Position numbers and translations under genes: made by a program
Notes under the pieces: model-generated
Seen by the model: the letters and a program-made list of their open reading frames with translations, nothing else
What the model was told of the DNA's origin: nothing
The model's database searches: none
Source of the DNA: Escherichia coli phage NG_A1
DNA length: 64,000 bases
Sequence record: LC788705.1
Reading direction: 5' to 3' (one strand)
Shown here: positions 17,707-26,384 of the stretch, piece by piece
Numbering within the stretch: position 1 is the stretch's first letter
Layout of the letters: every line of letters starts with the position of its first letter

Positions 17707-18569
17707 ACTAAAATTTCAATACGTTTTGCTAACATATCAATTTCTTCTTTATTTAAGTCACCGGGGTCTTTACCTTCGGGTAGAAGAAAGTTAGCAACTA
17801 CAGGTGTTAAACGCGTTTTTGTACGAATTAACTTGGCCAATGCTTGTGCAGCCTTATTACCAGAAGCATCATTATCTAGTAAGATAACAACAACTTTTAC
17901 ACCAGCAATAATATAAGGGCTGAACTTATCTGCAATATTATCCGAGGTAAACTGATGTGTACCAAAGCAACAAGAAGCATAGTCTATACCATTATCCTCT
18001 AGGTTCAGCATATCAAAGATACCTTCAACTAGAATAAGAACTGGAGTATTATATCGTACAGGGAAAATCGGTGGTGAAACTTGTTTTGGTTTTACTAAGT
18101 ATTTAGGAGGGGCAGAACTGTTTATAGAACGACCCAAAAATAGGATATTGCGTCCAACAGCATCTGTGATTGGGAATACAATTCTGCCTTCCCAGTCTGC
18201 TTGGTGTTGGAAAGCAAAATATTTCTTCAAGGTCTTAGAACTTATACCTCGGAAATCACCTTCGAAAAGGTAAGCAGATTCAGGAATTGCAAGATTTGTA
18301 GATCCATTCCTAATCTCTGAAATCTTTTTACGTACCTGCGATAGTCTTGGAGACTGTCGGTACTGAGTCTCATTAAAATAATGGTAAATGCTCGGTATAC
18401 CTTTACCGAAGCCACAACTCAAGCAGTGCATAATACCTGTTTCAGGATCAATACGCAAACTTGGATGTTTATCGTCATGATCTGGATTTAAGCAACAGAT
18501 TAAAATATCTCCACCAGTATCTTTATACTCAATTCCCTTAAGATCAAGTAATTCTGTTATTCGACTCAT
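17679..18569 (-). CDS. DNA primase (zinc-finger + TOPRIM)
   Basis: CxxH...CxxC zinc-binding region (CCLNPDHDDKH...CLSCG), TOPRIM motif (LILVEGIFDMLN, DNDASG). Confidence 0.85.
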   Translation of the reverse strand: MSRITELLDLKGIEYKDTGGDILICCLNPDHDDKHPSLRIDPETGIMHCLSCGFGKGIPSIYHYFNETQYRQSPRLSQVRKKISEIRNGSTNLAIPESAYLFEGDFRGISSKTLKKYFAFQHQADWEGRIVFPITDAVGRNILFLGRSINSSAPPKYLVKPKQVSPPIFPVRYNTPVLILVEGIFDMLNLEDNGIDYASCCFGTHQFTSDNIADKFSPYIIAGVKVVVILLDNDASGNKAAQALAKLIRTKTRLTPVVANFLLPEGKDPGDLNKEEIDMLAKRIEILVAESLKDLV

Positions 18570-19087
18570 GAATTTAACTCCTCCAGTGAAGGATACTTAG
18601 TTGGATCAAAAATCTCTTGAACAGCATTTTCTCCATGTAATTGTAGACGTAGTTCATTGGCTTTAGTGACTGCAAGCTTTAGATCTGCATAATTAAAGAG
18701 CCCACCGTGAACTTTTTCTCCCATAGAATTTACTACTCTTACATGCCATTTGTGATCCCGCTTAAACCAGAAAACTCCCAAGTACCCAGATTTACTTCTA
18801 GCTGTTTTATTTCTGCTATTTTCTTGCCGGGTGGATGGCCTAATATTAATCCATCTATTATCCCAAGTAATTCGATTAATATGGTCTACTTCCCCTGGCA
18901 TATATCCTTCCATATATAGGAAGGCTAGTTGGTGTGCAAAGTATAATTTTCTATCTACCTTTATCCGTATGTATCCACTATCTAGAGTACCCGCAATACT
19001 ACCAGCTTTCTGATTGCCTCTAGATACTTTTCTAGTAAACTCCCCAGTCTCTGGGGAGTAGTCAAATAGTTCTGTTATTCTACTCAT
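18566..19087 (-). CDS. HNH homing endonuclease with AP2-like DNA-binding domain
   Basis: HNH motif (EVDHINRITWDNRWINIR...ENSRN) and YLGVFW AP2-like segment; paralog of 42577-43125. Confidence 0.8.
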   Translation of the reverse strand: MSRITELFDYSPETGEFTRKVSRGNQKAGSIAGTLDSGYIRIKVDRKLYFAHQLAFLYMEGYMPGEVDHINRITWDNRWINIRPSTRQENSRNKTARSKSGYLGVFWFKRDHKWHVRVVNSMGEKVHGGLFNYADLKLAVTKANELRLQLHGENAVQEIFDPTKYPSLEELNS

Positions 19088-20556
19088 ATATCGCTGGCCT
19101 GTTCACCTGTTGAATTTTCAGCTTTGTCTTTCTTAGCACGTTTAGATTGAGCCGGCTTATCCTTCTCAATAGGGATAACGAACTCAGCTTCCATTTGAGA
19201 TATATCTTCCATTGCTAGATTGGTAGTGTTATCCATCCGCAGGGTTTCCCAGTTCATTTTAGGCATAAACTTCACGCTATCAGAAGAACGAGTCTTAACG
19301 AAGTCAAACATAATAGCACCTTGACCATTATCAGCTTTTGCAGCATTAAGATTAGCAGCCATGTCTGCGGAATCAAGAATCCCCTTTGACATACGTGTTC
19401 TACCATCTTGATCGATCTGGTAAGGAGCTACGCCAGCCACGTTATGTTTCTGGCAGATGGATTTGAAAGACGAGCTAACAACCATCTGTTCTTTCCAGTC
19501 ATACATATCAATGGTTTTAGAATCTGGAAGTCGGGTTTGGTTAATATAGTCCAGTAAAGCTACTGTAACTTTATCACCATATCTAGCAACTAATTTATTT
19601 AATTCTACGTCAACTGTTGTAATGGACAGTTCAGGGTCATAAACGATAATCATAGGAGTATGTAGTTCATACCCTTCTATTAGCTTACTCTCCATATCGT
19701 AGAAATCACTCATCTTAGCCATTGTATACTGTTTAACGAAGTTATCGAAAAGCTCTTCACCACCGTTGAACATTCTAGCTCTAGTTCTGGCTAATCTCAA
19801 TAGAGCTGCACCTTCTAGAGTATTATTACGCATTGCTAGTGCTGATACCCCGGCTAACATGGCTAGATTACGTCTAAATACTTCATGTTCTTTCATCTCA
19901 ATTGAGAAGTATGGAGCAATATCTCCATTCAAATATTGCTGAACCTGTATGTTTGAACAGATAATGGATTTACCAGTACCACGCCAACCACCAAGCAGTA
20001 ACGTTTCTGTGCGAGCTAAACCAATTTGAGCGTCGAACTCATTACAAATACCAAGAGCGATTAAGTTCAGTTTGGTATCTTCTTCTCTCTGGAAAATACG
20101 CATGTTATCTGCGTTGAATACTTTTCCAGTATTCGTTACTTTCTCTTCTAATTTTAAGTGAAGGGAGGCAACTCGGTTGAGAATTTCTCCCTGATCCAGC
20201 ATTGTTAAATCTTGAAGCACGTCTGTTTCTAGAAGCTTCAGGAATAAATCCTGTGTATATTCAGCCTCTAGGACTTCAAGTGCCTGTTCCATGCTCACTT
20301 CTGGAATTTGAGTGTTAGCTAAGACGACTAGAGCTTGAGAAAGGCGGGCGTTCCTATTAGCTTCAAGCATAAGTGCGTCAATGGACGGCATTGTGTTATA
20401 TTTTTTATAATAATTCTGGACGGCTTGGTAAATTGAGGAGAAAGCGTCATTAAAATGATCTTTATGCAGTTTTGAGAATGTTTCCAATGCTATTTGCTTC
20501 TGTTCGGAAGCTAGAAGCATCTTCAACACTACAGCTTGCACGTTAAACAAGGTCAT
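19084..20556 (-). CDS. Replicative helicase-like ATPase (DnaB/RecA-fold)
   Basis: Walker A GGWRGTGKS, Walker B IIVYDPE; start placed at ATG 20556 with AAGGAG RBS because the longer ORF start lies inside a terminator hairpin. Confidence 0.7.
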   Translation of the reverse strand: MTLFNVQAVVLKMLLASEQKQIALETFSKLHKDHFNDAFSSIYQAVQNYYKKYNTMPSIDALMLEANRNARLSQALVVLANTQIPEVSMEQALEVLEAEYTQDLFLKLLETDVLQDLTMLDQGEILNRVASLHLKLEEKVTNTGKVFNADNMRIFQREEDTKLNLIALGICNEFDAQIGLARTETLLLGGWRGTGKSIICSNIQVQQYLNGDIAPYFSIEMKEHEVFRRNLAMLAGVSALAMRNNTLEGAALLRLARTRARMFNGGEELFDNFVKQYTMAKMSDFYDMESKLIEGYELHTPMIIVYDPELSITTVDVELNKLVARYGDKVTVALLDYINQTRLPDSKTIDMYDWKEQMVVSSSFKSICQKHNVAGVAPYQIDQDGRTRMSKGILDSADMAANLNAAKADNGQGAIMFDFVKTRSSDSVKFMPKMNWETLRMDNTTNLAMEDISQMEAEFVIPIEKDKPAQSKRAKKDKAENSTGEQASDI

Positions 20557-20590
20557 TCTCCTTTGCACGCTTTCGTGCCTTCTAAATGCA

Positions 20591-20628
20591 AAAAGGGGAA
20601 GGAGCATAGCCCCCTCCCCTTAGGTTTA
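20591..20628 (-). terminator. Rho-independent terminator after D5-like gene
   Basis: Minus-strand G/C-rich hairpin (AAGGGGA...TCCCCTT) followed by a T-run. Confidence 0.65.
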
Positions 20629-20638
20629 ATTTACCAGA

Positions 20639-21406
20639 TTATTCAGCAGCCGCAGCTTTTGCATCCAGTTTAGCACGCTTAGCGGCACCATCATAGTCCT
20701 TAGCAACCAGACCACGACGAGACAGCATAGATTTAACACCGCGCTCAGACTTACCAGTTTTCTCAGCGATCTCAGCAACAGTCATGTTAACCAGATCCAG
20801 ACCTTCTAACAGATCTTCACGAGTTTTAGCACTTGAGGTTTCCTGTACCGGCATAGCAGCGATACGACCTTCACGAAGCAGGCTCAGAGCTTTACCGCGG
20901 ATCTGCTTAATATTACGACCGAAGTGAGCAGCGATAGCTTCAATAGTAGCACCAGCAACAACCTGATTAACAAAATCAGTTTCTTCATCTGGAGTGAAGG
21001 AACGAACAGCAGCAGCTTTTTCGGTTGGCTTAACAGAAGCGGTCATTTCCAGACTCAGAATCTTACCCTGTACCTGCTTAGCACCGAACTGACCACCAGC
21101 CACAGCAGCAGCGATTTCAGCATAGGTATACTGACCAGCATGAGCGTTCAGGAAATCAACCAGTTCAGCTTCCTGCTCAGGAGTCCACGGGGATTTCTGT
21201 ACTTCGTTAGCTTTCTGTACTTCAAAACCTTCTTTACGCAGTTTAGAGCCAACAGAGCGAGCGGTAACATCTTTGCCAGTTTCAGCGGCCAGTTCAGCAG
21301 CGATAGCAGCTACTTGTTCTTGAGAGATTACAGCAACACCCAGAGCAGTGGCTTTTGCTTTCAGAGACTCGGTTACACCTTCTACGTTCCAGTTCAGTTT
21401 AGACAT
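20639..21406 (-). CDS. DNA-binding protein with three HTH-like repeat modules (T5 D5-like)
   Basis: 255 aa, Ala-rich; three ~45-aa repeats each ending in a helix-turn-helix-like stretch (e.g. MTVAEIAEKTGKSERGVKSMLSRRGL). Confidence 0.5.
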   Translation of the reverse strand: MSKLNWNVEGVTESLKAKATALGVAVISQEQVAAIAAELAAETGKDVTARSVGSKLRKEGFEVQKANEVQKSPWTPEQEAELVDFLNAHAGQYTYAEIAAAVAGGQFGAKQVQGKILSLEMTASVKPTEKAAAVRSFTPDEETDFVNQVVAGATIEAIAAHFGRNIKQIRGKALSLLREGRIAAMPVQETSSAKTREDLLEGLDLVNMTVAEIAEKTGKSERGVKSMLSRRGLVAKDYDGAAKRAKLDAKAAAAE

Positions 21407-22172
21407 TATTATTTTTCTCCAATAGTTCTTTAATCGACAGGATTTCTATCCCATTCGTTTCGGCTTTCTTATAAGATGAGGAAGAACGTTTTGATTCATC
21501 CTCACAGATTAGGTATTTGACGTCTTTGGTAACGGATTTCTTAACCGTGTATCCTAGACCTTCTAAGTAGTTTGTTGCATCCGTTCGATTTGCAAAATCT
21601 TGCAAAGATCCGGTAATACATACCGCGATTCCATTTGGCTGGGCAACTAAATCATCAGTAACGACGGTTTTAGCTTTAGCACCAGTTGAGAATTTCCACG
21701 GTAATTCGATAACATCCTTGCCTTGTGGGGAATTTAGCCAGGCTTTATAATTTTCTCCAGCCTTGCCGTCAGCCTTCACATCATGGAAGCTAGTGCAATT
21801 TTGGGATAATTTCTTTGCTGCAACCTCTCCAATTAGAGGGATTCCTAAAGAACCGAGAACTGAACCAAAGTCAATGTCTCCGCGAACTTTAGTATTTAAT
21901 TCGCTAATTAACTTAGCGGCAACCTTGCTACCCACGGCTCTAACCAAATCTTCTTCGGTTAGGTAAAAGAGTTCTGAAATCTTCGTCAGCTCCAGCTTCT
22001 CAATAGTTTTCGGGCCAAAGCCCTTTAACTTCATTTTTGAACAGAAGTTCTCAATTAACTTACTTGATTGCGCTGGACAGTTGGACTTATTCCGACAGAA
22101 TAATTGTCCGTTGACAAGATCTAGCTTAGAACCACAAGAGGGACATTGTGTTGGAATTTCGATTTTCATCAA
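21399..22172 (-). CDS. ligB: NAD-dependent DNA ligase, C-terminal subunit (Zn finger, HhH, BRCT)
   Basis: CPSCGSKL...C...C zinc finger, HhH segments, BRCT-like C-terminus (IAVCITGSL...YLICE). Confidence 0.8.
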   Translation of the reverse strand: MMKIEIPTQCPSCGSKLDLVNGQLFCRNKSNCPAQSSKLIENFCSKMKLKGFGPKTIEKLELTKISELFYLTEEDLVRAVGSKVAAKLISELNTKVRGDIDFGSVLGSLGIPLIGEVAAKKLSQNCTSFHDVKADGKAGENYKAWLNSPQGKDVIELPWKFSTGAKAKTVVTDDLVAQPNGIAVCITGSLQDFANRTDATNYLEGLGYTVKKSVTKDVKYLICEDESKRSSSSYKKAETNGIEILSIKELLEKNNNV

Positions 22173-22199
22173 ATTTCTTCCTTATCAATTTATATAAAT

Positions 22200-22228
22200 A
22201 TTATAGCAAGTATTTAAGCATTTAGCAA
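22200..22228 (-). promoter_or_regulatory. Early promoter inside the ligA-ligB spacer
   Basis: Minus-strand TTGCTA-N17-TATAAT with A/T-rich UP element; a second TTGACA-N17-TATACT lies about 100 nt upstream. Confidence 0.65.
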
Positions 22229-22371
22229 CTACAATTTTAACTAACTTTGCTTACCCTCGCCATAACTTTCTATCCCTCAACTGAATGATAATAGTATATA
22301 CCTAAGCGGCGAAAATGTCAATAACCACTTTATAATTCCGATATGGTAGATGGGTAGCAAAGGGTTATGTA

Positions 22372-23343
22372 TTAATCGTATACTCGCTCTACTATGCACG
22401 GGATTACACCACCAGCACGAATCACTCGAATTTGGCAACCGATCTCTAGATCAAGAGAGTTAATATAATCAACGTTATTAAGAGTCGCTTTAACAATTGT
22501 AGCATCATCAATAATTACCGGTTCGAAATAACCAACTGGAGTTACTTTACCAGAAGCCCCTACCTGCCATTCAACTTTAGTAAGAGTTGTAATCTCACCT
22601 TCTTCATCCTCTTTAATAGCGAATGCTCCACGAGGGAATTTATTAGTCCAGCCTTCTCGGAAGAACTTGTTGTTGTCGTTAATACGAACAACTTTACCGT
22701 CCGTCGGAATCCATTTAAAGAAGGAACGCACATTAACAACTGTTAAGAAGTTCTCATTCTCTAGCCAAAGCATATCTTTTAAATACGCTTCTGTAATACC
22801 TACAGATTCAGCAGAACACTGGATACCATATGCAACGAAGATTAAACCACCTTCCCCGATACGTTGTACAAAATCATCACTATCTTTGAGGTTAATAGCA
22901 CCAGAGGCAAAGTTACGTTTATTTTCTACTTCTTTTGTAATTAGAACTTCACCAGTGATTTGAGTAGGTACTTTTTGGGAAATCTTTTTAGGGATGTTCA
23001 GCAATCTTACGTTGCTTGTGACATCATTCCCTAGAATACCATTACCACGAGTTAGTGCTTGAACAAATTCGCCATTAATATATAACAGAGAAATCGCACA
23101 ACCATCTAACTTATCAGTTTCTACTTGACCTAACGGGTTAAATGGGGGTTTATCTCCACGATTATAATAAACTTTCTGTAAAGAATACATACGATACAGA
23201 TGTGGAATATCACCCTTAGGTCCGATCTCTTCTTCTAACGGGAAGCGTTTTACCAGGCAATCATACTCCTCATCTGAGATTAAAGACATACCTTGATAAT
23301 ATGCTTCTTGGCAACGTTTAATAAAGTCTTTTACATTGGTCAT
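22372..23343 (-). CDS. ligA: NAD-dependent DNA ligase, N-terminal subunit (adenylation + OB domain)
   Basis: KxDG adenylation motif (ETDKLDGCAISLLY), NAD-ligase motifs, OB-fold C-terminus. Confidence 0.85.
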   Translation of the reverse strand: MTNVKDFIKRCQEAYYQGMSLISDEEYDCLVKRFPLEEEIGPKGDIPHLYRMYSLQKVYYNRGDKPPFNPLGQVETDKLDGCAISLLYINGEFVQALTRGNGILGNDVTSNVRLLNIPKKISQKVPTQITGEVLITKEVENKRNFASGAINLKDSDDFVQRIGEGGLIFVAYGIQCSAESVGITEAYLKDMLWLENENFLTVVNVRSFFKWIPTDGKVVRINDNNKFFREGWTNKFPRGAFAIKEDEEGEITTLTKVEWQVGASGKVTPVGYFEPVIIDDATIVKATLNNVDYINSLDLEIGCQIRVIRAGGVIPCIVERVYD

Positions 23344-23616
23344 TTATTCTGCCTCATAGTATGTGGGTTGTCTAGTGGATCCGTGCCATGTATAATTTTT
23401 GCAAAGATGCAAATATGTAGTTTTTACTAGCCTATCTGACAACGGAGAGTATATTTCAGCTACTAATACTTCTTTTTCGTAATGAAGTGAAATCAGCTTA
23501 TACCCACTTCTAGTTTTAGTATACTTTTCTCCATTAATCTTCTCCTCCCACATAAGTATAAGAGGCTGTCCGATGTACGGGAAAGGTTTAAGTGTACTTA
23601 TACTTATCTTTTTCAC
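23344..23616 (-). CDS. Hypothetical protein
   Basis: 90-aa ORF immediately downstream of ligA start region; own promoter at 23647-23675. Confidence 0.45.
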   Translation of the reverse strand: MKKISISTLKPFPYIGQPLILMWEEKINGEKYTKTRSGYKLISLHYEKEVLVAEIYSPLSDRLVKTTYLHLCKNYTWHGSTRQPTYYEAE

Positions 23617-23646
23617 TTTGCAACCCTCTCATTAATTTATATAAAT

Positions 23647-23675
23647 ATTATATAACAAAACTGAGTTGAAAGCAA
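23647..23675 (-). promoter_or_regulatory. Early promoter
   Basis: Minus-strand TTGCTT-N17-TATAAT followed by the conserved AAATTAATGAGAGG leader. Confidence 0.65.
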
Positions 23676-23702
23676 GTACATTTATAAAGAAAAAGCCAAG
23701 AA

Positions 23703-24011
23703 CTAGGCATTCTTGGCTTTGAGTTCTTCAGCTCGTTTCTGTACTTCATGTAAAACCTCAGATTCGCTAAGAATCTGTGTAAACGCATAGAAAAGCTGTG
23801 ATGTTGTTTCTAGGGTGTAAGGAAAAGAGAAGCCAGATTTCGTTGGAAACCATTCATCATTAATATCAAGAAGCCAGTAACGAATACCCATGTATAGATT
23901 CCCACGAAATTCAGATACTGTTAATCTTACTTGTTCCCCCTCCTTCTCCCAAAGTATGATGGACTGGTCATCAACGTGTCCTTCATAGTTTTGATTTACC
24001 TGTTCGCTCAT
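23703..24011 (-). CDS. Hypothetical protein
   Basis: 102-aa ORF. Confidence 0.45.
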   Translation of the reverse strand: MSEQVNQNYEGHVDDQSIILWEKEGEQVRLTVSEFRGNLYMGIRYWLLDINDEWFPTKSGFSFPYTLETTSQLFYAFTQILSESEVLHEVQKRAEELKAKNA

Positions 24012-24026
24012 TTACATATCCCAAAT

Positions 24027-24051
24027 ACACAAAAAGCCCCATATAGGGGCT
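24027..24051 (-). terminator. Rho-independent terminator
   Basis: Minus-strand AGCCCC-TATAT-GGGGCT hairpin followed by TTTTTGTG. Confidence 0.65.
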
Positions 24052-24061
24052 AATTGGTTTC

Positions 24062-24358
24062 TTATCGGCCTACTGGAGAAGCACGATCTAACTCTGATTG
24101 GAGGCTAGTCACACGACGGACTTTCTCGACAGGAATAAAACGGAAGCTATCATTAGTACGAGAGAAGACAAGGATCTCATCATCTTTCGCTTTACGAATA
24201 CGTTCACGTTTAATACGCTCAGCCAGATATTTATCTTGGGCTGGATCAAATTCCATCGTACCCTGAAGGTACGTGGTTCCTTTCTGACGAAGTTTCTCGT
24301 AATGAAGATAAAACTCACCAAATTTTTCACATTGTGCGATAATTTCAGCTTTGGTCAT
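24062..24358 (-). CDS. Hypothetical protein
   Basis: 98-aa ORF with ATG start. Confidence 0.45.
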   Translation of the reverse strand: MTKAEIIAQCEKFGEFYLHYEKLRQKGTTYLQGTMEFDPAQDKYLAERIKRERIRKAKDDEILVFSRTNDSFRFIPVEKVRRVTSLQSELDRASPVGR

Positions 24359-24394
24359 AACTGTGTTCCTTTTGTTGGTGGATTTATCTAAAAA

Positions 24395-24805
24395 TTACTT
24401 AGTGATAGCTCGGATTGCTTCTGCCAGATGAGCAGCCGCTTTACCGGTCAGTTTGTCGATAATTGCATCATCCAGAAAATCTGGTGCTAGGCCAGCATCA
24501 GAGAATGCTGAACGAAGATCGGCATGAGCTTGGGCTTTGGAAGTGCGAGAACCACCAGAAGCTTTTTCTCCAGTAGATGCACTAGATTTAGAAGCAGAGC
24601 CAGCAGCTTTCTTGATATATACACCTGCTTTGGTCAACTTCATACGAAAACCGTTCGGAGTTACACCATTTTCCTGAGCAATTTCGCTAACAATTTCCAT
24701 GCTAACACCCGGACGTTCATCCTCTGGGAATTGCTCCATACGAGCAACGTATTCGGAAGACATTTTTTCGAACAGTTCATCAGTCCACTGAGTTGGAGTA
24801 GTCAT
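24395..24805 (-). CDS. DNA-binding protein, single-module paralog of the D5-like repeat protein
   Basis: 136 aa; HTH-like module and Ala/Ser-rich linker resembling the repeats of 20639-21406. Confidence 0.45.
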   Translation of the reverse strand: MTTPTQWTDELFEKMSSEYVARMEQFPEDERPGVSMEIVSEIAQENGVTPNGFRMKLTKAGVYIKKAAGSASKSSASTGEKASGGSRTSKAQAHADLRSAFSDAGLAPDFLDDAIIDKLTGKAAAHLAEAIRAITK

Positions 24806-24862
24806 ATTTTATATTTCCTTAATTAAGAATTAAACAGAATAGTTCTTTCAAACTATGAGAAT

Positions 24863-24891
24863 ATTATATCAAGAATTATAGGATTAAGCAA
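24863..24891 (-). promoter_or_regulatory. Early promoter
   Basis: Minus-strand TTGCTT-N17-TATAAT with A/T-rich upstream element. Confidence 0.65.
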
Positions 24892-24908
24892 CTGAAATTT
24901 TTCTGTAG

Positions 24909-25184
24909 TTACTCCACCAGGCCAACAGCAAGCATATCATCAATGCTGGCAATCTCCCAATCGTCAGCAATAGCTTCGCATACTGTTAACGTAACAACCT
25001 CACTATAGGGATAATTACCAGCTACCCAGGTATGTTGGGTAACTACATCTGAGTCAGCGTCTAAAGTTAGTAACACTAAGCCATTATTGTCATTATCCCA
25101 GCTTCTACGATATAGAGTTTTTACTTCCCCATCTTTAAGCAAATCTGTTAGCTTACTCACGGCGTTTTCCTTTTTCTTTATCAA
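24909..25184 (-). CDS. Hypothetical protein
   Basis: 91-aa ORF. Confidence 0.4.
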   Translation of the reverse strand: MIKKKENAVSKLTDLLKDGEVKTLYRRSWDNDNNGLVLLTLDADSDVVTQHTWVAGNYPYSEVVTLTVCEAIADDWEIASIDDMLAVGLVE

Positions 25185-25857
25185 GTTTCAGGGCAGCCTT
25201 AGCAGCTTCGTTAATCAACGTAATAATTTCTTCACGAGTCCACTTATATCCTAGAGATTTTACGTCTACCCCTAACTTTTCCAGATGTTTAACAGAAGCC
25301 AGCTCGTAATTCATATAATGAACGTTCTGTTGTTTGCCTTCTGATAGAAGCCATACACGGTAACAACCAACAGGGTTATCCATTGCTTTTTTGATTTCAC
25401 CGATACACTGGTATCCAGGAACCCAAACAAGCTCACCAACTGCAAATTCTTCTGCTACAGCATCATCAGGAATAATTGGAGGATTCAATGGATCTACAAT
25501 ATCATTCAAACGAAGCAGAGCACCATATCGTTCCAGAACAGATTTAACCATTGCTACAGAGCGGTAATTACGATCGGCAATCTCTTCGAAAGAATCACCA
25601 GATAAATACTGCTCAATAACGTTAGCTAACTCAATGCCTTCAATGAGTGTGCCACGTTTCTTTTTCTTCATTTCGGCAACTTGAATCTGGCGGTCTTGCC
25701 ATTCTTCAATCATCCTTTCCATAGTTGTGTTGGATGATACGCCAAGCATTTCACATGCTGCTTTCTTAGTACCACCGTTCTCTAGATGCTCTATAACTTT
25801 TTTAAAGACTTCATCAGGGATTTCATGGATATGTTTCTTTCTGCGAGAACCAGCCAT
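25153..25857 (-). CDS. Putative HTH DNA-binding/regulatory protein
   Basis: 234 aa; N-terminal HTH (GGTKKAACEMLGVSSNTTMERM) as in small-terminase/transposase-type HTH domains. Confidence 0.5.
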   Translation of the reverse strand: MAGSRRKKHIHEIPDEVFKKVIEHLENGGTKKAACEMLGVSSNTTMERMIEEWQDRQIQVAEMKKKKRGTLIEGIELANVIEQYLSGDSFEEIADRNYRSVAMVKSVLERYGALLRLNDIVDPLNPPIIPDDAVAEEFAVGELVWVPGYQCIGEIKKAMDNPVGCYRVWLLSEGKQQNVHYMNYELASVKHLEKLGVDVKSLGYKWTREEIITLINEAAKAALKLDKEKGKRRE

Positions 25858-25925: not shown

Positions 25926-26384
25926 TTAATTTGGATAGAGTTCGGACTTAAAATTAGCCCTAACTTTTTTAGCCTCTTCTATAGTATTGCACTGCTGGTA
26001 CTTACGAATAGACCCTTTCTGCATTAGCACACAGTATTTATCGCCCCTCATGTAGATATTAGGCTCGCCCAACTTATTGTCTTTACGTACATTAATATTG
26101 TGCATTTGCTTAGATCTATTGGAGTCTTCTAAATTCTCTATAAAGTTGCAATCTTTAATCCTGTTTTTGTGGTCTATCTCTTCTGGTATATACCCCTTAT
26201 GATATAAGAATACCAGCTGATGCTCTCCCCAGTGCCTACGCTTAAACCCTATTCTTATATACCCTTTATGTTTACCCCCGGCAAACTTACCTACTAGACT
26301 CTTCTGTCTTGTTTTCTTCCATTTAAGATGGCCTGTTTCAGGATCATACTCAAAAGCCTCCCTAACCTCTTCCTGTGTTATCAT
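25926..26384 (-). CDS. HNH homing endonuclease
   Basis: HNH motif (EEIDHKNRIKDCNFIENL...SNRSKQ). Confidence 0.75.
   Translation of the reverse strand: MITQEEVREAFEYDPETGHLKWKKTRQKSLVGKFAGGKHKGYIRIGFKRRHWGEHQLVFLYHKGYIPEEIDHKNRIKDCNFIENLEDSNRSKQMHNINVRKDNKLGEPNIYMRGDKYCVLMQKGSIRKYQQCNTIEEAKKVRANFKSELYPN

What the first reader, a model, noticed from the sequence alone, without database searches (positions are those of the whole stretch)
20639..24805. HTH-repeat DNA-binding protein and a single-module paralog
The 255-aa Ala-rich protein (20639-21406) is built of three ~45-aa repeats each ending in a helix-turn-helix-like stretch, and the 136-aa protein at 24395-24805 looks like one copy of the same module with an Ala/Ser-rich linker. 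Both stand out compositionally, with GC-rich Ala codons in an AT-rich genome. The repeat architecture suggests multivalent DNA binding.
Basis: seen in the sequence. Interest (0 to 1): 0.35.

Follow-up and report, generated by a model that had tools for sequence, protein, structure and literature searches.

The report
T5 D5 and D3 DNA-binding proteins
These two genes are the long-known phage T5 early genes D5 (a characterised DNA-binding protein) and D3; D5 is a chain of four, not three, related helix-turn-helix modules, and D3, like the pre-early protein A2, carries one copy of the first module, so the finding is real but mostly ordinary.

Summary
The window is a T5-like phage (Tequintavirus), about 99% identical to sequenced T5 relatives. 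ORF 20639-21406(-) is gene D5, annotated in T5 as a DNA-binding protein needed for replication, late transcription and early shut-off. ORF 24395-24805(-) is gene D3.

The repeat observation holds, but the count is wrong. D5 has four modules of about 60-68 aa, each a helical HTH module, plus a C-terminal helix. Profile comparisons beat every column-shuffle control. M2 and M3 are the closest pair (probability 96%, E 2.7e-9). Fourteen of the 19 invariant residues lie in the four basic third helices (p 1.8e-8).

D3 residues 1-66 align end to end with D5 module M1 (probability about 90%) and have matching predicted helices.

D3 is a paralog of the pre-early dsDNA-binding protein A2, which lies outside the window. 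Both fall in phrog_1725, and their profiles align at 96% probability. A2's N-terminal module is the best match to D5 M1 (97%, E 1.3e-10).

D5 and D3 are the two most Ala-rich proteins in the window. Both sit behind conserved strong early promoter sequences (P-N26, P-K28a/b).

Verdict: known genes, with a modestly new architectural description. Interest is low to moderate.

The parts
20639..21406 (-). Gene D5 (255 aa, 27 kDa), early dsDNA-binding protein
   Evidence: phrog_323 'transcriptional regulator, D5-like', E 1.5e-71, full length. Annotated 'D5 protein/DNA-binding protein' in records that are 98.9% identical. 902 phage records hold a homolog.
21203..21406 (-). D5 module M1 (residues 1-68): helices 11-22, 29-43, 49-58, with an invariant Trp at position 6
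   Evidence: AF2 model. Best match to the A2 N-module (probability 96.9%, E 1.3e-10) and to the D3 N-module (91%). Weak Pfam hits to HTH_33 and Tc3 HTH. Profile hit to a designed engrailed homeodomain, E 1.4e-3.
21011..21202 (-). D5 module M2 (residues 69-132): helices 76-88, 95-101, 109-118; starts W-T-P-E and is Myb-like
   Evidence: M2-M3 hhalign probability 96%, E 2.7e-9, z = 21. The pooled M2/M3 profile hits c-Myb at 2.8e-4 and MYB21 at 7e-4. Pfam Myb scores are below the cutoff.
20831..21010 (-). D5 module M3 (residues 133-192): helices 139-150, 155-162, 166-178
   Evidence: Weak Pfam hits to EutK_C, HTH_28 and HTH_23.
20693..20830 (-). D5 module M4 (residues 193-238): short 205-207 turn plus helices 210-217 and 221-231; sigma-70 region-4-like HTH
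   Evidence: Pfam Sigma70_r4_2 at 28.7 bits against a gathering cutoff of 25.7. Matches the HTH part of the D3 N-module at probability 90% over 30 columns.
20639..20692 (-). D5 C-terminal Ala/Lys-rich helix (residues 239-255) and stop codon
   Evidence: AF2 helix 240-254. G240 is invariant; D237 and K246 are nearly invariant.
20593..20621 (-). Intrinsic terminator directly after D5
   Evidence: 13-bp stem with 8 G-C pairs followed by a T run.
22200..22321 (-). Two sigma-70 promoter-like sites upstream of ligB-D5, at the position where T5 annotates P-K28b and P-K28a
   Evidence: TTGACA-17-TATACT and TTGCTA-17-TGnTATAAT. T5 annotation. The ligB stop codon overlaps the D5 ATG.
24395..24805 (-). 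Gene D3 (136 aa, 14.5 kDa), an A2-like protein
   Evidence: Annotated 'D3 protein'. phrog_1725 'DNA binding protein', E 1.7e-50. T5 A2 matches the same PHROG at 4e-52. 593 phage records hold a homolog. 247 representatives at the 50% identity level.
24608..24805 (-). D3 N-terminal HTH module (residues 1-66), same type as D5 M1 and the A2 N-module
24542..24607 (-). D3 Ser/Ala/Gly-rich linker (residues 67-88), ending in the conserved GGxR(T/V)SK motif
   Evidence: pLDDT below 50 for residues 68-86. K90 is invariant; R87 and S89 are nearly invariant. The motif aligns with A2's GGGSSxRKAH.
24395..24541 (-). D3 C-terminal helical domain (residues 89-136) with the invariant D..I..KLTGKAA motif, plus stop codon
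   Evidence: AF2 helices 90-103, 113-117, 121-135. Conservation. No relation to the three D5 modules tested (M1, M2, M3). Only its first 27 columns align weakly with A2.
24863..24891 (-). Early promoter P-N26 (TTGCTT-17-TGATATAAT) driving D3
   Evidence: 96% identical to the annotated T5 P-N26 region.
24035..24051 (-). Terminator ending the D3-T5.114 transcription unit
   Evidence: T5 annotates a terminator at the same place.

Best explanation
**Identity and architecture (shown).** The 255-aa ORF is T5 gene D5. It is a single chain of four tandem helical HTH modules, homeodomain-, Myb- or sigma-4-like, followed by a short C-terminal helix. M2 and M3 are a clear internal duplication. M1 belongs to the same module type as the N-termini of A2 and D3. 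M4 is a sigma-region-4-like HTH.

**How D5 most likely works (inferred, plus prior knowledge).** Each module presents a conserved, positively charged third helix. The modules are confidently folded, but their relative orientation is not fixed, like beads on a string. One D5 monomer can therefore contact several adjacent sites on duplex DNA. Together with very high expression from strong early promoters, this would give high-avidity, largely sequence-independent coating of dsDNA. That fits the recorded phenotypes: requirement for replication and late transcription, and shut-off of early genes.

**D3.** The 136-aa ORF is T5 gene D3, a paralog of the pre-early protein A2. It has one M1-type HTH module, a disordered linker ending in a conserved GGxR(T/V)SK motif, and a small helical C-terminal domain. 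By analogy with A2, which is reported to be a dsDNA-binding dimer that also binds A1, D3 most likely binds DNA through its N-module and uses its C-terminal part for dimerisation or partner binding. It would then reach bivalency by oligomerisation rather than by tandem duplication. This part is inferred.
For: - Identity.
- Four modules: AF2 mean pLDDT 93.8 with pTM only 0.53. hhalign on family sub-alignments, with every shuffle-tested pair above all 60 column shuffles. Smith-Waterman shuffles.
- Third helices: 14 of 19 invariant residues lie in the four third helices, which are 44 of 255 residues (hypergeometric p 1.8e-8). Those helices carry net charge +2 to +4, while the whole protein has pI 6.8.
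- HTH nature: Pfam Sigma70_r4_2 above its cutoff on M4, weak HTH or Myb hits on M1-M3. Profile hits to c-Myb, MYB21, the Timeless DNA-binding domain and an engrailed homeodomain.
- D3-D5 link.
- A2-D3-D5 link. A2 and D3 fall in one PHROG. Pfam PF26822 is recorded on all A2 homologs, some D3 homologs and some D5 homologs.
- Expression: the P-N26 sequence and P-K28a/b-like sites are conserved, ligB-D5 overlap, and both units end in terminators.
- Literature: the T5 annotation of D5. D5 is a 26-kDa monomer that binds a retron msdDNA stem-loop; the escape mutations G53D, W74*, V149I and G232D fall in M1, M2, M3 and M4; D3-only escapers carry E30Q and G85D (bioRxiv 10.64898/2026.07.11.737809). A2 is a dsDNA-binding dimer that binds A1 (bioRxiv 10.1101/866236).
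Against:
- Foldseek found no significant solved-structure match for either model. The best E values were 0.13 and 0.29.
- M1-M2, M1-M3 and M1-M4 hhalign probabilities are only 27-46%, and M2-M4 only 4.7%. A common origin of all four modules is therefore less certain than for M2-M3.
- D3's N-module has no Pfam HTH hit of its own, and its pI is acidic at 4.8.
- D3 dimerisation is only an analogy with A2. The far C-terminal parts of A2 and D3 are not demonstrably homologous (probability 3.5%).
- Sequence-independent binding rests on my memory of the 1979-1983 D5 biochemistry. Those papers could not be read here.
Confidence: 0.7

Rival explanations
1. D5 is a sequence-specific transcription factor. 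Its Myb-like and sigma-4-like modules would read specific sites, for example at early or late T5 promoters, to switch transcription, rather than acting mainly as a non-specific DNA coat.
For: M4 passes the Pfam Sigma70_r4_2 cutoff. The M2/M3 profile hits sequence-specific Myb repeats. D5 is required for late transcription and for early shut-off. T5 early promoters share a specific discriminator motif, and the temporal switch is still unexplained (PMC7472727). The retron preprint describes some specificity for an msdDNA stem-loop.
Against: D5 sits behind very strong promoter sequences and is highly abundant in phiR2-01 virion preparations, which suits a stoichiometric binder. As I recall, the classical biochemistry reports cooperative, non-specific dsDNA binding; I could not verify this here. 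Sigma regions 2 and 3 are absent.
Confidence: 0.2
2. The D3-D5 resemblance is only generic HTH or Ala-rich-helix similarity. D3 would be related to A2 alone, and the D5 'repeats' would be independently acquired HTH domains rather than duplications.
For: Each D5 module weakly hits a different Pfam HTH family. Several inter-module probabilities are below 50%. Foldseek with the D3 model hits a Vibrio-phage D5 only at E 0.72.
Against: Column shuffles keep composition, yet none reaches the observed scores. The D3N-M1 and A2N-M1 alignments are collinear over 51-62 columns, including the N-terminal invariant Trp. D5 is the only hit of the D3N HMM among 533 window ORFs, although other HTH proteins such as D2 are present. 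The PF26822 model of the A2 family is recorded on both D3 and D5 relatives.
Confidence: 0.08
3. D3 is not primarily a DNA binder. It would be an adaptor that uses its conserved C-terminal domain and GGxRTSK motif to bind a protein partner, such as RNA polymerase, D5 or an A1-like enzyme, much as A2 binds A1.
For: A2 binds A1. The most invariant D3 residues are in the linker motif and C-domain: K90, D112, I115, K118, T120, G121, K122, A124. The D3 N-module is acidic. D3-only mutants (E30Q, G85D) escape a retron that is triggered by D5, although D3 alone does not trigger it. An unassigned 15-kDa early protein co-purifies with RNAP.
Against: The N-module keeps the conserved third-helix pattern N51, R54 and L57 (invariant) plus G52, which aligns with the D5 M1 recognition helix. 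The PHROG label is 'DNA binding protein'. There is no direct evidence for any partner.
Confidence: 0.25

Closest known systems
Bacteriophage T5 D5 protein (T5.118; phrog_323)
   Same: It is the same gene. The match to the family is full-length, the DNA is 98-99% identical to T5-group phages, and the position between ligB and the DnaB-like helicase gene is the same.
   Different: Nothing material differs. What this analysis adds is the explicit four-module repeat description. The only structural statement I found in the literature is 'contains a helix-turn-helix motif'.
Bacteriophage T5 A2 protein (T5.006; phrog_1725; Pfam PF26822)
   Same: D3 and A2 match the same PHROG over their full length. 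They are 136 and 135 aa long. They share the N-terminal W-[NT]-x-E HTH module, the GG-S-x-R-K linker motif and the first helix after it (hhalign probability 96.3%, E 1.5e-9, 94 columns). D5 M1 is the same module type (96.9%).
   Different: A2 is pre-early, lies in the terminal repeat outside this window, is basic (pI 8.8) and is essential for second-step DNA transfer. D3 is early, acidic (pI 5.7) and of unknown function. Their last roughly 40 residues are not demonstrably homologous.
Myb/SANT and homeodomain-like tandem three-helix DNA-binding repeats (c-Myb R1R2R3, Tc3 bipartite domain, POU)
   Same: Both have tandem three-helix modules of about 50-60 aa with an aromatic-T-x-E-E start and a recognition third helix. 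There are weak profile hits to c-Myb, MYB21, Timeless and engrailed, and Foldseek's top hits are multi-HTH proteins.
   Different: Pfam Myb scores are below the gathering cutoff. The third conserved aromatic residue is missing. No Foldseek hit is significant. Four modules in one small phage protein with an Ala-rich composition has no solved counterpart.
GcrA cell-cycle regulator (N-terminal DNA-binding domain, linker, C-terminal sigma70-binding domain)
   Same: The overall layout of D3 and A2 is similar: a small N-terminal DNA-binding module, a flexible linker and a small helical C-domain. Foldseek hits phage 'GcrA-like' proteins at E 0.28, probability 0.80. By eye, the W-T-x-E...GK..L motif is reminiscent of GcrA.
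   Different: There is no Pfam GcrA hit. The GcrA DNA-binding domain in the PDB scores only E 0.25-1.5 against the module profiles. I do not file D3 as a member.

Membership tests
T5 D5 protein family (phrog_323) | Full-length match to the family profile | tested here: met
   E 1.5e-71, residues 1-253.
T5 D5 protein family (phrog_323) | Conserved position downstream of ligB and upstream of the DnaB-like helicase in a Demerecviridae replication module | tested here: met
T5 D5 protein family (phrog_323) | Cooperative binding to double-stranded DNA; requirement for replication and late transcription | not testable with these tools
   Known only from the T5 annotation note and the title of McCorquodale 1979 as cited.
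A2/D3 family (phrog_1725; Pfam PF26822) | Full-length match of D3 to the same profile that T5 A2 matches | tested here: met
   D3 E 1.7e-50, profile positions 1-127 of 129. A2 E 4.1e-52, positions 1-128 of 129.
A2/D3 family (phrog_1725; Pfam PF26822) | Direct profile-profile homology between the D3 and A2 families | tested here: met
   Probability 96.3%, E 1.5e-9, 94 columns. N-modules alone give 95.1%, with 0 of 40 shuffles reaching the score.
A2/D3 family (phrog_1725; Pfam PF26822) | Dimeric dsDNA-binding protein | not testable with these tools
   Reported for A2 only.
Myb/SANT DNA-binding repeat (PF00249) | Score at or above the Pfam gathering cutoff | tested here: not met
   13.0-17.6 bits against a cutoff of 24.4.
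Myb/SANT DNA-binding repeat (PF00249) | Three regularly spaced aromatic residues, about 19 apart, forming the core | tested here: not met
   M2 has W74 and Y93/Y95, but the third position is aliphatic (V112/I116). M3 starts with F137. This is read directly from the sequence.
Sigma-70 family | Region 4 HTH | tested here: met
   Sigma70_r4_2 scores 28.7 bits against a cutoff of 25.7 on residues 204-230.
Sigma-70 family | Region 2 (core binding and -10 recognition) | tested here: not met
   No Sigma70_r2 hit at E up to 1. TIGR02937 scores 12.6 bits against a cutoff of 42.9. D5 is not a sigma factor.
GcrA (PF07750) | Sequence match to the GcrA family or to the solved GcrA DNA-binding domain | tested here: not met
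   No Pfam hit. PDB 5yiu scores E 0.25 and 1.5.
Homeodomain-like three-helix HTH fold | Three-helix bundle with the third helix as the conserved, basic recognition helix | tested here: inconclusive
   The AF2 helices and the clustering of invariant residues fit. All Foldseek PDB hits have E of 0.13 or higher, and model coordinates could not be superposed here.

The most novel reading that the evidence does not exclude
A2, D3 and D5 would form one Demerecviridae-specific family built on a shared HTH module and used in temporal succession: A2 pre-early, then D3 and D5 early. D3 would act as a functional partner or modulator of D5 on DNA. That would explain why D3-only mutants escape a retron whose trigger is D5. 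D3 might also be the still-unassigned 15-kDa early protein that co-purifies with host RNA polymerase, which would link this family to the unexplained early-to-late transcription switch of T5.
Probability: 0.12. Interest if true: 0.5.

Novelty: already known. Interest (0 to 1): 0.25.

Why it matters
D5 is an essential T5 protein that has been known for a long time. How it acts in replication, in early shut-off and in late transcription has never been resolved, and it was recently reported as the trigger of a type IX retron.

Knowing that it is a chain of four related HTH modules, with the conserved residues concentrated in four basic third helices, gives a concrete basis for truncation and mutagenesis experiments. 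It also places the four published escape mutations in four different modules.

The link from A2 through D3 to D5 module M1 ties the enigmatic second-step-transfer protein A2 to the early DNA-binding proteins. It gives D3, which has no assigned function, a testable role.

None of this changes what kind of thing these genes are.

Tried and rejected
- **GcrA-like membership.** Suggested by my reading of the motif and by Foldseek hits to phage GcrA-like proteins. Rejected because there is no Pfam hit and the PDB GcrA domain scores only E 0.25-1.5.
- **D2 (25153-25857) as a further paralog.** Not supported: module HMMs give E of 0.2 or higher.
- **D3 C-terminal domain against D5 modules or the D3 N-module.** No relation. 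Against the A2 C-terminal half there is only a weak 27-column match.
- **Foldseek against the PDB for both models.** No significant hit.
- **Sequence profiles of the A2 and D3 families against the PDB.** Nothing.
- **NCBIfam.** Nothing.
- **The 8vd6 'CAP REPEAT' hit (E 6e-12).** It is the sum of five weak matches to a generic 'EIAE.LG.S' helix in a repeat protein, so I treat it as uninformative.
- **Longer proteins hit by the D3 profile.** These are fusions or gene-calling artefacts, not D3-D5 intermediates.
- **Primary literature.** The D5 paper (PMC353123) and Davison 2015 (PMC4743489) are not held.
- **PF26822.** It is absent from the local Pfam copy, so its name and thresholds are unknown.
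- **Direct superposition of the D3 N-module on D5 M1.** Not possible because model coordinates are not exposed.

Full report
**What the window is.** A megablast of 20000-25000 finds 454 phage records. The best are 98.9% identical over the full 5 kb, and all are T5-like phages (Tequintavirus, Demerecviridae). In annotated relatives and in the T5 reference, ORF 20639-21406(-) is gene D5 (T5.118). Its note reads 'DNA-binding protein; required for DNA replication and late transcription; also is involved in shutoff of expression of ...'. ORF 24395-24805(-) is gene D3 (T5.113). D5 matches phrog_323 'transcriptional regulator, D5-like' at E 1.5e-71. D3 matches phrog_1725 'DNA binding protein' at E 1.7e-50. 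D5 lies between ligB and the DnaB-like helicase gene. D3 lies about 3 kb away, in the same early, minus-strand replication cluster.

**Checking the composition.** D5 is 17.6% Ala and D3 is 15.4% Ala. They rank first and second among 71 non-overlapping ORFs of at least 90 aa, which average 6.4% with sd 3.1%. Gene GC is 0.478 and 0.455 against 0.388 for the window. Third-position GC stays low, at 0.33 and 0.31, because Ala is encoded mostly by GCT.

**Checking the repeats in D5.**
- Smith-Waterman scores against 500 shuffles show that segment 69-132 against 133-192 is clearly significant (z = 8.4, 0 of 500). Other intra-D5 pairs are marginal at the single-sequence level.
- I built a 64-sequence family alignment with identity down to 50%, cut it into four segments and compared them by hhalign. 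M2-M3 gives probability 96.2%, E 2.7e-9. M3-M4 gives 57%, M1-M4 46%, M1-M3 33% and M1-M2 27%. M2-M4 reached only 4.7% and was not included in the shuffle control.
- For each of these pairs, none of 60 column-shuffled controls, which keep composition, reaches the observed score (z 5.6-21).
- AlphaFold2 on the family alignment gives mean pLDDT 93.8 but pTM only 0.53. The domains are confident; their mutual arrangement is not. Helices fall at 11-22/29-43/49-58, 76-88/95-101/109-118, 139-150/155-162/166-178 and (205-207)/210-217/221-231, with a terminal helix at 240-254.

So D5 has four modules with a period of about 60-68 residues, not three of about 45.

**HTH character of the modules.** M4 passes the curated cutoff for Sigma70_r4_2 (28.7 bits against 25.7). 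M1-M3 give only sub-threshold hits to HTH_33/Tc3, Myb, and HTH_23/HTH_28/EutK_C. Of the 19 invariant columns in the family, 14 lie in the four third helices, which make up 44 of 255 residues (hypergeometric p 1.8e-8). Those helices carry net charge +2 to +4, although the whole protein is neutral at pI 6.8. This is the expected signature of recognition helices.

**Checking D3 as a single-module relative.**
- D3 residues 1-68 score z = 5.8 against both M1 and M4.
- With a 23-sequence D3 family alignment, the D3 N-module aligns with M1 over 59 columns (probability 91%, E 9e-7, z = 14). It aligns with the HTH part of M4 over 30 columns (90%, z = 13).
- The whole-family comparison aligns D3 1-70 with D5 1-69 (89%).
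- In HMM searches of all 533 stop-to-stop ORFs of the window, the M1 model finds D3 as its only non-self hit (E 0.0047). The D3 N-module model finds D5 as its only non-self hit (E 0.0012). The next best hits are at E 0.8 or higher.
- The AF2 model of D3 (mean pLDDT 78) has helices at 9-23, 31-45 and 50-60, almost the same as in M1. It then has a disordered stretch at 68-86 and a second helical domain at 90-103, 113-117 and 121-135.
- The pooled alignment is collinear from the invariant N-terminal Trp (W6 in D5, W7 in D3) through the third helix.

It misses the conserved C-terminal domain, whose invariant residues are K90, D112, I115, K118, T120, G121, K122 and A124. That domain is unrelated to any D5 module tested (M1-M3; it was not compared with M4).

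**A wider family: A2.** A Foldseek search of viral models with D3 returned, besides D3 orthologs, an 'A2 protein' of a Vibrio phage (E 0.012) and weak GcrA-like and D5 hits. I fetched the real T5 A2 (T5.006, 135 aa). It is pre-early, lies in the terminal repeat and is not in this window.
- A2 matches the same PHROG as D3 over its full length (E 4.1e-52).
- The A2 and D3 family profiles align over 94 columns (probability 96.3%, E 1.5e-9). This covers the N-module, the linker motif (GGGSSxRKAH in A2, GGxR(T/V)SKA in D3) and the next helix.
- The A2 N-module is the best outside match of D5 M1 (probability 96.9%, E 1.3e-10, 0 of 40 shuffles). It also matches M2 and M3 at 66-69%.
- Independently, the precomputed Pfam family PF26822 is recorded on every A2 homolog, on five D3 homologs and on five D5 homologs. 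Its name is not in the local Pfam copy.
- The far C-terminal parts of A2 and D3 are not demonstrably related.

So D3 is best described as an A2 paralog, and D5 M1 as the same module type fused to three further HTH modules.

**Distribution.** D5 homologs are found in 902 phage records and D3 homologs in 593, across phages of Escherichia, Salmonella, Klebsiella, Vibrio, Aeromonas, Proteus, Pectobacterium and others. D3 diverges faster: 61% against 77% identity in Klebsiella phages, and 32-39% against 48-54% in Vibrio and Aeromonas phages. An exhaustive profile search with the D3 family finds 247 representatives at the 50% identity level. Nearly all are 110-150 aa with full-length matches. The few longer ones are fusions or artefacts, except one with a duplicated C-terminal domain.

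**Expression context.** The T5 reference annotates the early promoters P-N25 before D2, P-N26 before D3 and P-K28b/a before ligB-D5. From my own knowledge, these are among the strongest sigma-70 promoters known. The P-N26 region is 96% identical in the window (TTGCTT-17-TGATATAAT at 24891-24863). Two strong promoter-like sites lie at 22321-22200. The ligB stop codon overlaps the D5 ATG. A 13-bp-stem terminator follows D5 directly, and another ends the D3-T5.114 unit. Both proteins are therefore expected to be made in large amounts. In the T5-like phage phiR2-01, D5 was among the most abundant proteins in virion preparations (PMC8624392).

**Comparison with known structures and families.** Neither model has a significant PDB match by Foldseek. 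The best E values are 0.13 for D5 and 0.29 for D3. The top hits are multi-HTH or homeodomain-like proteins: Tc3 transposase, POU, the Timeless DNA-binding domain, spliceosomal Myb proteins, an IS transposase HTH protein and Pitx2. Profile searches of PDB sequences give c-Myb 2.8e-4, MYB21 7e-4 and Timeless 1.2e-3 for the M2/M3 profile. They give a designed engrailed homeodomain at 1.4e-3 for the M1/D3N profile. GcrA appears only at E 0.25-1.5. The full A2 and D3 profiles hit nothing, and NCBIfam gives nothing. The modules thus belong to the broad homeodomain- or Myb-like three-helix HTH class. They meet the criteria of no specific family except the sigma-4-type HTH for M4, and D5 lacks the rest of a sigma factor.

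**Literature.** A 2026 preprint (10.64898/2026.07.11.737809) reports D5 as the trigger of retron-Kva2. In that work D5 is a 26-kDa monomer by mass photometry. An AlphaFold3 model has 'a helix-turn-helix motif' binding the msdDNA stem-loop. Escaper T5.1 carries D5 G53D, W74*, V149I and G232D, plus D2 E76Q. Escaper T5.2 carries only D3 E30Q and G85D. In my module map the four D5 changes fall in M1 (third helix), M2 (the conserved Trp), M3 (first helix) and M4 (just after the third helix). D3 G85 lies in the conserved GGxRTSK motif. In the parts I read, that paper does not describe a repeat architecture or a D3-D5-A2 relationship.

A2 is described as a dsDNA-binding dimer that binds A1 and is essential for second-step transfer (10.1101/866236; 10.64898/2026.04.02.716235). 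An unassigned 15-kDa early protein co-purifies with host RNA polymerase (PMC7472727).

**Most likely mechanism.**
- Shown: D5 is a single chain of four related HTH modules whose conserved, basic third helices are the obvious DNA-contact surfaces. D3 and A2 each carry one such module plus a linker and a small helical domain.
- Inferred: D5 binds duplex DNA multivalently, one module per adjacent site. With its high abundance this would give the avid, cooperative coating that blocks early transcription and conditions the template for replication and late transcription. D3, like dimeric A2, probably reaches bivalency by oligomerisation and/or uses its C-terminal part to recruit a partner.
- The rival that D5 is mainly a sequence-specific factor cannot be excluded with these tools.

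**Verdict.** The genes are well-known T5 genes and D5's DNA binding is established. The A2-D3 grouping is already implicit in PHROGs and Pfam. The new content is the four-module map and the A2/D3/D5-M1 link, which is descriptive. Interest is low to moderate.

Noticed in passing
window 20554-20621 (-): The ATG at 20607, used as the start of the DnaB-like helicase gene (D6) here and in the T5 reference, lies in the loop of the strong terminator hairpin that follows D5. A downstream ATG at 20556-20554 is preceded by AAGGAG and gives MTLFNVQ... It looks like the more plausible start.
   Followed up: partly
window 18566-19087 (-) and 25926-26384 (-): Two HNH-type homing-endonuclease ORFs are inserted in the replication cluster. 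The first sits between the primase and DnaB-like genes. It is absent at that place in T5_ev212 but present in Salmonella phage FGS029.
   Followed up: no
window 21399-23343 (-): The NAD-dependent DNA ligase is split into two genes, ligA (22372-23343) and ligB (21399-22172). They are separated by about 200 bp that carry the P-K28a/b-like promoters.
   Followed up: no
window 25153-25857 (-): D2 (234 aa) looks HTH-rich by eye and is driven by P-N25 in T5. Its PHROG label 'helicase' (phrog_3611) seems doubtful for a protein of this size and content. It is not significantly related to the D5/D3 modules. The retron preprint reports it as toxic in E. coli and mutated (E76Q) in an escaper.
   Followed up: partly
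window 23703-24011 (-): This 102-aa ORF between D3 and ligA is annotated 'putative ssDNA-binding transcriptional regulator' (phrog_4053). It is probably the PC4-like protein of T5-like phages.
   Followed up: no
P0348 (207 aa): A metagenomic D3-like protein carries two copies of the C-terminal 'K(L/F)TGKA' domain. This suggests that the domain is an independent, duplicable unit.
   Followed up: no
P0018, P0038, P0151, P0231; OR849466.1: Partial proteins 97-100% identical to T5-type D5, D3 and A2 are deposited as Enterococcus faecalis proteins. A 1.5-kb 'Listeria phage' record is 100% identical to D3. These are most likely contamination or mislabelling in public assemblies.
   Followed up: no
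PMC8624392: In Yersinia phage phiR2-01, the D5 homolog was among the most abundant proteins detected in virion preparations. D5 is not reported as part of the T5 virion. This could reflect carry-over on DNA or genuine packaging.
   Followed up: no
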